From the NCBI RefSeq assembly GCF_036507355.1, contig NZ_AP027877.1: a stretch of 64,000 nucleotides of DNA, one strand, 5' to 3'. Below, in pieces: positions 3,001 through 6,000 of this stretch. Within the stretch, counting starts at the first letter, position 1. Every line of letters begins with the position of its first letter. The stretch comes from Escherichia coli (lineage in GTDB: Bacteria; Pseudomonadota; Gammaproteobacteria; Enterobacterales; Enterobacteriaceae). Position numbers: made by a program.

Positions 3001-6000
3001 TGATGGCTGCCACGCCTGCCGGAGTGGTTTCGTGCAGGTGAATATCGACGCCTTTGTCGTAGTCCAGCGCAATCTGGAACATGGTATCGAGGGATTTTTC
3101 CATCGCGCCATCGACACTGGTCGGGTCCAGCCCGCCGACGTAATGCGCCCCCGCCTGCATCGCTTCGCGCATTAAGGGTTCCGATTTCGACAGCAGCAAA
3201 CCGTGCTGCGGGAAGGCGACGATTTCACACTCGAAGCCCGCCTGACGTCGCGCCAGCACCGCCTGCAAATTTTGCAGATTTTTCAGACCGGAAACCGGTT
3301 CGATATTGCAGTGGCTGCGGGCAATGGTGGTGCCTTTCGACTGCAATAGATCGATCAGTTTTTCCGCCCGCTCCTGCGTATACGGTTGTAACTCCGGCAG
3401 CATTTTCTGCTCGAGTTTGATCATGTCCTGGATAGTGGTGCCTGCCGGACGATTGAGCGAGCGCCACGGCCCGCCGTAAAAGGTTTTGTCGAGATGAATA
3501 TGCATGTCGCGGGTGGTGGGCAGCATCAGCTTACCGCCAGCGTCATAGTGCGGCAGCGTGGCGTCCGGATGCTGCTTGTTCTCGCGCAGGGCAACAATTT
3601 TACCGTTCTGAATCTCCACGGTCTGGCGCACCGTGCGGGTCTGCACCGCCACGCCATTTTCGTAGTCAAATCCAGTTTCCAGCAGCACGTTGTCGAGATA
3701 GTAATGCGGGTCAGTGATTTTCATGGTGTTGTTCGCTTCGCAGTTTGTGGTGCCAGAGACCGCCGCATGGGCGAGCGGCACAGAGGTACCAAACAGCGCG
3801 GCGGCGGTGACCATCTTACCACTCTGGCTCAAAAACTCACGGCGGCTATTGTTTTCTTTCATCTTACGTCCTTACGTTTTAATAATGTGGGTGCCCGTTT
3901 CACCGCGCAGCGCCGCTGGCAGGCATTCCGGCGTGGTGATAATCACTTCTTTACCGCCCTGTTCCAGGAACGTCAGGCTGGCGATGATTTTTGGCAACAT
4001 GCTGCCGGGCGGGAAATGCCCTTCCTGCATATAGCGAGTCATGGTGGCAATATCTACGCGATCGAGCGCCTGCTGCTGCGGTTTACCAAAATGAATACAC
4101 ACTTTTTCCACGCCAGTGGTGATCACCAGAATGTCGGCGTGAATTTCGCGAGCCAGTAGCGCGGTAGAGAGATCTTTGTCGATAACCGCGTCCACGCTTT
4201 GGTAATCTCCCGCGTCAGTACGCACTACCGGAATTCCACCGCCGCCCGCGCCAATTACGACAAAACCTTGTTGGATCAGCGCTTTAATGGCAGGTGCTTC
4301 GACAATACGTTTCGGTTCCGGCGAGGCGACCACGCGGCGATAGCCCCGCCCGGCATCTTCAACAAAACACCAGTCAGGGTTTGCCTTTTGTAATTCGTCA
4401 CGCTGGCTGTCACTAAAGAATGCGCCGATGGGCTTGGTGGGATGGGCAAATCCCGGATCGTTTTTATCCACTTCCACCTGAGTCACCACGGTGACGGCTT
4501 TTTTCTCGCCGTGACGCGCCAGTCGGTTGTTCAGCGCCTGTTGGATCAGATAGCCAATGCCGCCTTGCGTATCCGCTACACAGTTCGCCAGCGGCGTTAA
4601 GGGGAGCCCTTCGCGCTCGTGGGCAATCTCCGCACGGCGTAAATCCAGCCCGACCTGCGGCCCGTTACCGTGGGTCAGCACAATGTCGTAATCGGAAGCA
4701 TGCATTTCCAGCACCGTATCGGCCACGGCTTTCACCGCCTCCGCCTGATGCTCAATCGACTGGCTGGCGTTATCTTTGATAATGCTGTTGCCACCAATGG
4801 CAACGACCACAAGCTCTTTCATGTTGTTATGTCCGCTACAGAGGGTGATGGGGTTGTGACCAACGCCAAATTGCCTGATGCGCTACGCTTATCAGGCCTA
4901 CAAATTCTCGTGCCACTCGTAGGCCGGATAAGGCGTTCACGCCGCATCCGGCAATGGTGACAAATGCCTGATGCGCTACGCTTATCAGGCCTACAAATTC
5001 TCGTGCCATTCGTGGGCCGGATAAGGCGTTCACGCCGCATCCGGCAATGGTGACAAATGCCTGATGCGCTACGCTTATCAGGCCTACAAATTCTTGCGCC
5101 ACTTGTAGGCCGGATAAGGCGTTCACGCCGCATCCGGCAATGGTGACAAATGCCTGATGCGCTACGCTTATCAGGCCTACAGATTCTTGCGCCATTCGTA
5201 GGCCGGATAAGGCGTTCACGCCGCATCCGGCATGAACATGTAGGTCAGACGCCGTAACGTTCGCACCAGCCAAGAATGGCTTTCTCGAAGCAGGCAAAAG
5301 GTGGATGCACAATGCCCGCGCCAATCATGCCGACGCCCGCATCTTTATGGGCGATGGCGGTGTTGATCACTGGCAGAATGCCGCTGCTACCCACGCGGGT
5401 GATGTCGATTGCCGATGGCACGCCCATAAAACCGAGCAGCGGAATGGTGACGTTGGGGTTTTCGCCAAGGGTGATTTCGCGCATCTGACGGGAGAAATCG
5501 ATAGCCTCTTCCACCGTGCCACCCACCAGCGCGACGATTGCAGGCGCGGTCGCCATGGCAAACCCGCCAATACCGTAGGTTTCTGTGATGGCGCTGTCGC
5601 CGATATCCAGCCCCGAATCTTCCGGCTTATAACCAGCAAACATCGGGCCGATGACCTGCTGCGCTGGGCCGGTAAACCACTGCCCCGGCAGGCCGCTGAC
5701 CCGCAGGCCGAACTCGACGCCGTTACGCGCCATGGTGGTAACGACGGTGCTGTATTCGATGCCGTGCGCCGCATCCATCGCCGCTTTACACATCGCCATC
5801 CACGTCGGGCCGGAGAAGTAGTCGCTGCTGGCGACAAACTCAAACACTTCGCGCTGTTGCTCGACGGAGTAGCCCGCCTGAATAATCCCCGGCGTCAGCG
5901 CCTGAATCAGCAGCGTCGTCCCGGCGTTATTGCGGTTATGGCACTCATCGCCCATATGCAGCGCCTGCGCCAGCATTAAGCGCAGATCGATTTCGCCGAT

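What the first reader, a model, noticed from the sequence alone, without database searches (positions are those of the whole stretch)
4873..5232. Four-unit tandem BIME/REP array inside the yah operon
A perfectly phased 93-bp tandem array sits between yahI and yahG within an apparent operon. Its GC-rich palindromes generate long spurious ORFs on the minus strand (repeated RRERLIRPT... peptides), probably the origin of yahH-type annotations. Such arrays can act as mRNA stabilisers or partial terminators, so yahI-yahJ expression may be decoupled from yahD-G.
Basis: seen in the sequence. Interest (0 to 1): 0.35.

Follow-up and report, generated by a model that had tools for sequence, protein, structure and literature searches.

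The report
Known BIME-2 repeat array (REP23)
The 93-bp tandem array between yahG and yahI is real, but it is an ordinary and already catalogued E. coli repeat (a BIME-2 cluster, REP23 in K-12), whose copy number runs from 0 to 5 among strains and whose "yahH" gene is just a reading frame through the repeats.

Summary
Window 4867-5232 holds 3.9 phased copies of a 93-bp unit (95% match, no indels). It lies between the yahG stop (5247-5245) and the yahI start (4822), on the minus strand.

Each unit is a Y REP, a 17-nt linker, an inverted Z2 REP and a 12-nt linker. That makes eight alternating REPs, the textbook BIME-2 layout. K-12 has the same four-unit array, catalogued as REP23.

Among 57 evenly sampled complete E. 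coli genomes the site holds 0, 1, 2, 3, 4 or 5 units (6, 26, 2, 1, 19 and 3 genomes), always with yahG and yahI intact.

Because 93 is 31 codons, two sense-strand frames stay open through the array. K-12 yahH is the GCGVNALSGLR frame.

Neither frame is conserved and no curated protein family fits. Orthologous spacers in Kluyvera, Citrobacter, Raoultella, Klebsiella and Enterobacter each carry their own GC-rich palindrome.

The most likely effect is an untranslated, strongly folded spacer (-204 kcal/mol). It would uncouple yahIJ from yahEFG through RNA-decay protection and Rho-dependent attenuation. This is inferred from the repeat class and was not measured here. The element is already known and of low interest.

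The parts
4867..5232 (-). BIME-2 array (REP23 of K-12): four 93-nt units, eight REPs, transcribed as part of the yah mRNA on the minus strand
   Evidence: TRF period 93, 3.9 copies, 95% match, no indels; unit dissection
5199..5232 (-). Y REP of unit 1 (TGCCGGATGCGGCGTGAACGCCTTATCCGGCCTAC). Its stem begins 13 nt after the yahG stop codon
   Evidence: hairpin -21.3 kcal/mol, z -5.3
5152..5180 (+). Z2 REP of unit 1 (GCCTGATGCGCTACGCTTATCAGGCCTAC as written on the + strand, so inverted relative to the Y REP)
   Evidence: exact match; hairpin -12.9 kcal/mol on the sense strand
5106..5139 (-). Y REP of unit 2
5059..5087 (+). Z2 REP of unit 2
5013..5046 (-). Y REP of unit 3 (tail is CCCAC instead of CCTAC)
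4966..4994 (+). Z2 REP of unit 3
4920..4953 (-). Y REP of unit 4
4873..4901 (+). Z2 REP of unit 4 (last REP before yahI)
5233..5244 (-). 12-nt leader CCTACATGTTCA between the yahG TGA stop and the first REP. An alternative 22-nt leader exists in other E. coli lineages
4823..4867 (-). A/C-rich, G-poor unique stretch upstream of the yahI ATG with the conserved core CATCACCCTCTGTAGCGGA. It is the only C>G part of the spacer and the likely independent ribosome entry region for yahI (or a Rho-loading region)
   Evidence: conserved across five or more genera; composition
4819..5226 (-). Open frame MRRERLIRPT... (135 aa). It equals X002/'yahH' of EHEC, is in phase with yahG, and ends in a TGA overlapping the yahI ATG. 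Judged non-coding
4836..5324 (-). Open frame containing GCGVNALSGLR... repeats. It is the frame of K-12 yahH (b0322). Judged non-coding
4922..5177 (+). Three matches to Rfam naRNA4 (RF02564) at 78 bits on the strand antisense to the yah genes: 4922-4991, 5015-5084, 5108-5177. Each spans one inverted Y, the head-to-head linker and one Z2
   Evidence: gathering score 59.5; the yah-sense strand scores only 53.9

Best explanation
The array is a BIME-2, a tandemly amplified pair of Y and Z2 repetitive extragenic palindromes. It sits in the only sizeable intercistronic gap of the yahEFG-IJ cluster, and K-12 carries the same element, catalogued as REP23.

Shown here: it is transcription-sense non-coding DNA, and its units are gained and lost as whole 93-bp blocks (0 to 5 units among strains).

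Inferred from the class: once transcribed, the eight hairpins form a very stable untranslated 422-nt spacer. Ribosomes leave at the yahG stop, 13 nt before the first hairpin, so yahI must be initiated independently at the conserved A/C-rich leader. The naked structured RNA then does two things. It protects the upstream yahEFG segment against 3'-to-5' exonucleases. It also allows Rho-dependent attenuation before or at yahI. Together these lower yahIJ expression relative to yahEFG and uncouple the two halves.

At the DNA level the same sequence is the type of site bound and cut by DNA gyrase and acts as a supercoiling barrier. The 'yahH' ORFs are by-products of a period that is a multiple of three.
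For: - Identity: exact Y and Z2 consensus REPs alternate in orientation, with 12- and 17-nt linkers, four times in tandem. The BIME-2 definition (y + z2, short linkers, multiple tandem copies, copy number variable between strains) is in PMC3333891. The same locus in K-12 is called REP23.
- Dynamics: 0, 1, 2, 3, 4 or 5 units lie between intact yahG and yahI. Counts among 57 evenly spread genomes are 6, 26, 2, 1, 19 and 3. Linker 'barcodes' show whole-unit duplication and loss: K-12 units 1 and 2 have identical Y, Z2 and tail-to-tail linker sequences and differ only in the head-to-head linker, and the 3-unit allele L003 equals K-12 minus one of them.
- RNA structure: the Y hairpin is -21.3 kcal/mol, the Z2 hairpin -12.9, and the whole spacer -203.7 with z = -8.8.
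- Sequence constraint: variation among 28 units falls in the 17-nt linker while the stems are nearly invariant. Y and Z2 stems differ by a paired G-C to T-A change (read directly from the sequence).
- Transcription signals: no intrinsic terminator and no sigma-70-like promoter on the sense strand within 3800-6800.
- Class functions from the literature: RNA stabilisation, Rho-dependent attenuation that is abolished when the BIME is translated, gyrase binding and supercoil insulation. REPs within 15 nt of a stop codon stall ribosomes.
- Comparative: all 18 orthologous yahG-yahI spacers in other Escherichia species and in Pseudocitrobacter, Kluyvera, Citrobacter, Raoultella, Klebsiella and Enterobacter carry a GC-rich palindrome. 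In nearly all it starts within a few nt of the stop. Outside Escherichia and Pseudocitrobacter it belongs to different repeat families. A conserved G-poor leader before yahI follows in each.
Against: - No expression, 3'-end or decay data exist for this locus, so the size and even the direction of any effect on yahIJ are unmeasured.
- About 11% of sampled E. coli lack the array and 46% have a single unit, with the genes intact. The four-unit state is therefore dispensable and may be nearly neutral.
- The array itself is not C>G on the sense strand, so it is not an obvious Rho-loading site. Only the last ~50 nt are.
- Published ribosome footprints over the RRERLIRPT frame, if genuine, would mean the spacer is not naked RNA. 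By the cited result, translation would abolish Rho-dependent attenuation.
- About 18% of sampled genomes have the 22-nt leader, which puts the first hairpin beyond the 15-nt window for ribosome stalling.
Confidence: 0.6

Rival explanations
1. The array is a selfish or neutral passenger. It is a REP/BIME that landed in a permissive intercistronic slot and expands and contracts by slippage, unequal recombination or RAYT (TnpA-REP) activity, with no meaningful effect on yah expression.
For: Copy number ranges from 0 to 5 with intact flanking genes. O157:H7 (5 units) and many 1-unit strains have equally scoring flanks. BIME-2 copy-number variation and TnpA-REP-driven recombination are described for the class. 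E. albertii shows a sloppy duplication that carried along the yahG 3' end.
Against: In all 18 orthologous spacers examined outside E. coli the slot holds a stable hairpin, although the repeat family differs between genera. That argues the hairpin-bearing state is maintained or strongly favoured. The REP stems are nearly invariant while the linkers drift. A -200 kcal/mol untranslated insert inside an operon is unlikely to be expression-neutral.
Confidence: 0.25
2. The main role is at the DNA and nucleoid level. The array would act as a gyrase-binding site and supercoiling barrier, or as a source of naRNA4-like HU-binding RNA and cruciforms, like REP325.
For: There are three Rfam naRNA4 matches above the gathering score (78 vs 59.5 bits). 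REP325 is the same kind of Y/Z2 array, with six units. BIME-2 elements are in vivo gyrase targets and lie mostly at borders between supercoiling domains.
Against: The naRNA4-sense strand is antisense to the yah genes, and the yah mRNA strand scores below the threshold (53.9). The only promoter-like site facing that way (4756-4783) is a 9/12 match, and the number of such sites equals chance. Strains with 0 or 1 unit are common. Nothing here tests protein binding.
Confidence: 0.1
3. The array is translated. Either YahH/X002 is a real repeat protein, or UGA read-through of yahG yields a C-terminally extended YahG whose translation ends at the yahI start and couples the two genes.
For: Ribosome footprints over X002 in EHEC: RPKM 56, 61% coverage, RCV 0.64. 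In this window the RRERLIRPT frame is in phase with yahG, follows a TGA-C stop, has an ATG in every Y REP, and ends in an ATGA overlap with yahI.
Against: The frame is not conserved. A 1-nt deletion in the last or second-to-last unit (K-12, O157, L003) and the 22-nt leader change phase, and orthologous spacer lengths show no mod-3 pattern. Alleles with 0 or 1 unit remove most or all of the ORF. No peptides were detected. The reads were mapped with Bowtie defaults to a sequence repeated across the genome. No Pfam or NCBIfam model reaches its cutoff. K-12 and EHEC 'YahH' are in different frames.
Confidence: 0.05

Closest known systems
REP23 / yahH locus of E. coli K-12 MG1655 (between yahG b0321 and yahI b0323)
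   Same: It occupies the same position and has the same four Y/Z2 units. The spacer is 421 nt versus 422 nt here and about 96.7% identical, with the differences confined to linkers, loops and the post-array stretch. It is named REP23.
   Different: The window allele has a full 17-nt linker in unit 4, where K-12 has a 1-nt deletion. It also has different linker variants in units 2-4. As a result, the RRERLIRPT frame stays open to the yahI ATG here but not in K-12.
BIME-2 family (Bachellier/Gilson/Hofnung classification; gyrase target of Espeli and Boccard 1997)
   Same: Y and Z2 REPs in alternating orientation, short linkers, tandem amplification, extragenic position, and strain-to-strain copy-number variation.
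   Different: Nothing structural differs. Its position inside an operon, rather than at a 3' end, is one of the two recognised REP locations.
REP325 / naRNA4 (yjdM-yjdN spacer; Qian et al. 2015)
   Same: It is the same kind of Y-linker-Z2 unit in tandem, and the array matches the Rfam model above threshold three times.
   Different: There are four units instead of six, each hit covers 70 nt of the 77-nt model, and the naRNA4-sense strand is opposite to the flanking gene transcription. HU binding and a nucleoid role are untested for this locus.
Intercistronic REP stabilisers and attenuators (class literature as cited; classic examples such as malE-malF recalled from my own knowledge, not checked here)
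   Same: REP hairpins lie between two cistrons of one transcription unit, and the downstream gene has its own initiation region.
   Different: Those classic cases have two or three REPs. This one has eight, and its effect has not been measured.

Membership tests
BIME-2 | Built from Y-type and Z2-type REPs (not Z1) | tested here: met
   Four exact Z2 matches. Four Y REPs match the consensus with 0-1 change. There is no Z1 in the array.
BIME-2 | [quoted passage not shown] | tested here: met
   Z2 lies on the + strand and Y on the - strand, strictly alternating.
BIME-2 | Short linkers (S; s/l/r motifs) rather than the long IHF-binding L linker of BIME-1 | tested here: inconclusive
   The linkers are 12 nt (head-to-head) and 17 nt (tail-to-tail), so they are short. 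I could not compare them with the published S, s, l and r motif sequences, which are not held.
BIME-2 | Occurs as multiple tandem copies, with number variable between strains at one locus | tested here: met
   3.9 copies here; 0-5 units among E. coli genomes.
BIME-2 | Extragenic location | tested here: met
   It lies between the yahG stop and the yahI start. The overlapping yahH ORFs have no conserved frame and no family support.
BIME-2 | Bound and cleaved by DNA gyrase in vivo | not testable with these tools
   A class property from the literature.
naRNA4 (Rfam RF02564) | Sequence and structure match at or above the gathering score | tested here: met
   78 bits against 59.5, three times, on the + strand. 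The - strand (yah-sense) scores 53.9, below threshold.
naRNA4 (Rfam RF02564) | Transcribed in the matching orientation and bound by HU | not testable with these tools
   The matching strand is antisense to the operon, and there is no convincing promoter.
Stop-codon-proximal REP translational regulators (Liang, Rudd, Deutscher 2015) | REP hairpin begins within 15 nt of the upstream stop codon | tested here: met
   13 unpaired nt lie between the TGA (5247-5245) and the first paired base. This is not met in alleles with the 22-nt leader.
Stop-codon-proximal REP translational regulators (Liang, Rudd, Deutscher 2015) | Ribosome stalling, tmRNA tagging and reduced upstream protein | not testable with these tools
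   I know this only through the summary in PMC12306157. The primary paper is not held.
Protein-coding gene yahH | Reading frame and product conserved among strains and species | tested here: not met
   K-12 and EHEC annotations use different frames. Indels and leader variants shift phase. Alleles with 0-1 units are common. Other genera have unrelated palindromes.
Protein-coding gene yahH | Membership of a curated protein family | tested here: not met
   No NCBIfam or Pfam hit reaches its cutoff for any of the three ORF products.

The most novel reading that the evidence does not exclude
The yahG-yahI junction may be a conserved 'hairpin slot', in which selection maintains some strong stem-loop a few nt after the yahG stop and the unit number acts as a heritable dial. 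The hairpin is followed by a conserved G-poor leader (CAYCACCYTCTGYASCGGA). Each genus fills the slot with its own repeat family. In Escherichia the number of BIME-2 units (0-5) would set the YahEFG:YahIJ ratio. In alleles like this window it could also work through partial translation of the array, which is in phase with yahG after a weak TGA-C stop and ends in ATGA at yahI.
Probability: 0.12. Interest if true: 0.45.

Novelty: already known. Interest (0 to 1): 0.12.

Why it matters
Mainly as annotation hygiene. "yahH" and "protein YahH" entries still propagate through RefSeq, as partial or pseudo CDSs, in different frames and with different lengths, although they are read-throughs of a repeat whose period happens to be 31 codons.

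The locus is also a convenient natural allelic series (0, 1, 2, 3, 4 or 5 units in otherwise similar contexts). It could be used to measure how BIME-2 dosage affects operon polarity, mRNA decay, Rho attenuation and local supercoiling, questions that remain only loosely quantified for REPs. It does not reveal a new kind of element.

Tried and rejected
- Translational coupling through the array. The RRERLIRPT frame is in phase with yahG and ends in ATGA at yahI in this window and in L001, and the 0-unit allele L007 also has a spacer with length mod 3 = 2. I rejected this as coincidence. K-12, O157, L003, L004 and L005 break the phase, and spacer lengths in 18 other orthologues show no mod-3 preference.
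- A curated YahH protein family. NCBIfam and Pfam scans of three ORF products gave only sub-threshold noise, the best being SidA at 32.5 bits against a cutoff of 35.
- An internal promoter or intrinsic terminator on the sense strand. None was found within 3800-6800, and the totals on both strands equal chance.
- The array as a Rho-loading (rut-like) region. The sense strand is G>=C throughout the repeats, and only the last ~50 nt before yahI are C-rich and G-poor.
- Locus-specific 3'-end data. Dar and Sorek 2018 has no supplements held as text. The Adams et al. 2021 supplements do not mention yahF/G/H/I.
- The primary paper on stop-proximal REPs (Liang 2015) could not be retrieved by DOI or PMC id.
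- My first REP search pattern had the wrong spacer length and found nothing. It was replaced by fuzzy matching.
- A literature search for 'REP23' returned unrelated plasmid replicon hits.
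Full report
**1. What is in the sequence**

Tandem Repeats Finder finds a single array at window 4867-5232: period 93 bp, 3.9 copies, 95% matches, no indels, score 660. The repeat finder independently reports 178-nt copies spaced exactly 93 nt apart, 96% identical.

The genes here are on the minus strand: yahJ 2480-3862, yahI 3872-4822, yahG 5245-6663 and the fdrA-like yahF 6663-8210. The names come from RefSeq annotation of matching loci. The array fills most of the 422-nt gap between the yahG stop (TGA, 5247-5245) and the yahI ATG (4822-4820). The other junctions in the cluster are a 1-nt overlap and a 9-nt gap, so this is the only real spacer.

**2. Anatomy of the unit**

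Read on the sense (minus) strand, each unit has four parts:
- a Y REP, TGCCGGATGCGGCGTGAACGCCTTATCCGGCCTAC;
- a 17-nt tail-to-tail linker;
- an inverted Z2 REP, GTAGGCCTGATAAGCGTAGCGCATCAGGCA;
- a 12-nt head-to-head linker, TTTGTCACCAT plus one base.

The exact 29-nt Z2 sequence occurs four times here and is expected 0.00 times by chance. Y and Z2 alternate in strand, giving eight REPs. The Y and Z2 stems differ by a paired change (GCCGGAT...ATCCGGC versus GCCTGAT...ATCAGGC), which keeps complementarity; this can be read directly from the sequence.

This is the published definition of a BIME-2: y plus z2, short linkers, multiple tandem copies, and copy number variable between strains (PMC3333891).

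**3. It is already catalogued**

K-12 MG1655 has the same arrangement: a 421-nt spacer with four units, 96.7% identical to the window, with differences only in linkers, one loop base and the post-array stretch. [quoted passage not shown]

The window itself is not any RefSeq complete genome. Its best matches are 98-99% identical, and the yah genes are about 97% identical to K-12. It is clearly an E. coli-type chromosome.

**4. The yahH question**

Because 93 = 31 x 3, any frame that is open in one unit stays open through the array. Two sense-strand frames are open.

- K-12 yahH (b0322, 106 aa) translates to VNALSGLRMAQESVGLISVAHQAF....
- The RRERLIRPT frame (window 4819-5226) is the one Neuhaus et al. 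2016 called X002 = yahH in EHEC. In an O157:H7 locus it runs 154 codons plus a stop, which is 465 nt, exactly their length.

RefSeq annotation is inconsistent. It gives "protein YahH", often flagged partial or pseudo, or "hypothetical protein", or nothing, with lengths that follow the unit number.

Evidence against a real gene:
- The frames change with a 1-nt deletion in the last or second-to-last unit and with a 12- versus 22-nt leader.
- Most sampled genomes have 0 or 1 unit.
- Other genera have unrelated sequence in this position.
- No NCBIfam or Pfam model reaches its cutoff.

Evidence for translation is limited to ribosome footprints (RPKM 56, coverage 0.61, RCV 0.64) without mass-spectrometry peptides. 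Those reads were mapped with Bowtie at default settings. From my own knowledge, Bowtie defaults do not exclude multi-mapping reads, which is a concern for a sequence present at many near-identical sites. Strongly folded RNA can also survive RNase I digestion.

I noted that in this window the RRERLIRPT frame is in phase with yahG, follows a TGA-C stop, and ends in a TGA overlapping the yahI ATG. These relations are not conserved, so I treat them as coincidence.

**5.

Fetched loci show 0 units (EC31), 1 (two leader variants), 2, 3, 4 (window, K-12, ET350) and 5 (O157:H7) between intact yahG and yahI.

A flank-only query, listed at even steps down the ranking, gave 57 informative genomes (counts derived from the record spans):

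| Units | Genomes |
|---|---|
| 0 | 6 |
| 1 | 26 |
| 2 | 2 |
| 3 | 1 |
| 4 | 19 |
| 5 | 3 |

K-12 and BL21 laboratory derivatives inflate the 4-unit class. O157:H7 (5 units) and many 1-unit strains have equally scoring flanks, so copy number changes faster than the flanks diverge.

Linker variants act as barcodes and show whole-unit duplication and deletion. K-12 units 1 and 2 share identical Y, Z2 and tail-to-tail linker sequences and differ only in the head-to-head linker, and the 3-unit allele equals K-12 minus one of them. Among 28 aligned units, variation falls in the 17-nt linker and the REP stems are almost invariant.

**6. Other species**

A scan of species-representative genomes with YahG returned 80 loci. 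Eighteen are true orthologues with yahI directly downstream; the others have about 1.6 kb containing another gene in between, or stop at the end of the held sequence.

- Escherichia whittamii and E. albertii have two Y/Z2 units. The two E. albertii units are separated by a duplicated copy of the last ~45 nt of yahG.
- Pseudocitrobacter also carries Escherichia-type REPs.
- Kluyvera, Citrobacter, Raoultella, Klebsiella and Enterobacter have spacers of 79-195 nt. Each contains a stable GC-rich palindrome, mostly starting a few nt after the stop, but from different repeat families: GTAGCCCGGG-type pairs, CCCTCTCCC/GGGTGAGGG-type, and CCCCGGCC-type.
- The E. coli 0-unit allele carries a CCCTTCTCCC...GGGGAGAGGGG hairpin of the Kluyvera/Klebsiella kind.

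In every case a conserved A/C-rich, G-poor stretch with the core CAYCACCYTCTGYASCGGA precedes the yahI ATG. So the slot habitually holds a hairpin, and yahI has its own conserved leader.

**7. Likely mechanism**

Shown:
- The spacer RNA is predicted to be extremely stable: Y -21.3 and Z2 -12.9 kcal/mol, the whole spacer -203.7 kcal/mol against -155.5 +/- 5.5 for shuffles, z = -8.8. Alternative long Y:Z2 pairings reach about -37 kcal/mol.
- There is no sense-strand intrinsic terminator or sigma-70-like promoter.
- The first stem begins 13 nt after the stop.

Inferred from the class:
- REP hairpins block 3'-to-5' decay and define steady-state 3' ends.
- BIMEs cause Rho-dependent attenuation that is relieved when they are translated.
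- REPs within 15 nt of a stop codon stall terminating ribosomes.
- BIME-2 elements bind gyrase and lie mostly at borders between supercoiling domains.

The best reading is therefore an untranslated structured spacer that uncouples yahIJ from yahEFG and probably lowers yahIJ expression. The conserved G-poor leader would serve as the independent ribosome entry site, and possibly as the Rho-loading stretch; it is the only C>G segment.

None of this has been measured at this locus. The commonness of 0- and 1-unit alleles means the extra units may be nearly neutral.

**8. The naRNA4 match**

Rfam naRNA4 (RF02564) matches three times at 78 bits (gathering score 59.5). The matches are on the + strand, antisense to the yah genes; the yah-sense strand scores 53.9.

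This reflects the fact that REP325, the source of naRNA4, is itself a six-unit Y/Z2 array. It shows family resemblance, not evidence of an sRNA gene here. The only promoter-like site facing that way (4756-4783) is weak, and the number of such sites equals chance.

**9. Verdict**

The identification as a BIME/REP array is correct. The regulatory consequence is plausible but unmeasured. The element is already known (REP23, BIME-2) and of low interest.

The modestly interesting residue is the natural 0-5 unit allelic series, and the fact that all 18 orthologous spacers examined carry a GC-rich palindrome, of genus-specific families outside Escherichia and Pseudocitrobacter.

Noticed in passing
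window 4823-4867 (minus strand), and the same position in L009-L026 and L042: A conserved A/C-rich, G-poor ~45-nt leader lies directly upstream of the yahI ATG, with the core CAYCACCYTCTGYASCGGA. It is shared by Escherichia, Kluyvera, Citrobacter, Raoultella and Enterobacter even though the adjacent palindromes are unrelated. It could be a ribosome standby site, a Rho-loading stretch or a regulator/sRNA site.
   Followed up: partly
L012 (E. albertii), spacer between yahG and yahI: The 315-nt spacer has two BIME-2 units separated by a duplicated copy of the last ~45 nt of yahG plus the leader. This shows a duplication whose unit extended into the coding region.
   Followed up: partly
L007 (E. 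coli EC31) and about 11% of sampled E. coli genomes: A zero-unit allele has a 95-nt spacer with a CCCTTCTCCC-TTCA-GGGGAGAGGGG hairpin instead of REPs. The hairpin is of the same family as palindromes in the Kluyvera and Klebsiella spallanzanii spacers, and is possibly the older occupant of the slot.
   Followed up: partly
window 4756-4783 (+ strand): A weak sigma-70-like site (TCGACT-16-GATAAT, 9/12) inside yahI points into the array in the naRNA4-sense direction. The number of such sites in the region equals the chance expectation.
   Followed up: no
window 61473-61667 and 62269-62352: Two further REP clusters, of Y/Z1 type (four REPs and two REPs). Each gives a naRNA4 Rfam hit above the gathering score on the minus strand (79.1 and 65.1 bits).
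   Followed up: no
window 32756-32822: An isolated Y/Z2 REP pair (a single BIME-2-like unit). The Z2 has one mismatch to the array's Z2.
   Followed up: no
window 48400-48475 (minus strand): A tRNA-Thr (anticodon CGT) gene. I did not examine whether it marks an integration site.
   Followed up: no
one search hits H99 and H100 (plasmid records NZ_CP074577.1 and NZ_OZ282437.1): Fragments of yahI or yahG at 95-96% identity also occur on E. coli plasmids (120 plasmid places in total), so part of the yah cluster is sometimes plasmid-borne.
   Followed up: no
L013 (Pseudocitrobacter faecalis) and L011 (Pseudocitrobacter MAG): The yah cluster is 93-96% identical in nucleotides to the window and carries Escherichia-type Y/Z1/Z2 REPs in the spacer. 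This is as close as E. albertii, which suggests horizontal transfer of the cluster or, for the MAG, contamination.
   Followed up: no
L027-L088: Most YahG homologues outside the Escherichia, Kluyvera, Citrobacter and Raoultella group have about 1.6-2.2 kb containing another gene between the yahG-like and carbamate-kinase genes. This is presumably the paralogous fdrA-ylbE-ylbF-ybcF type cluster (assignment from my own knowledge, not tested).
   Followed up: no
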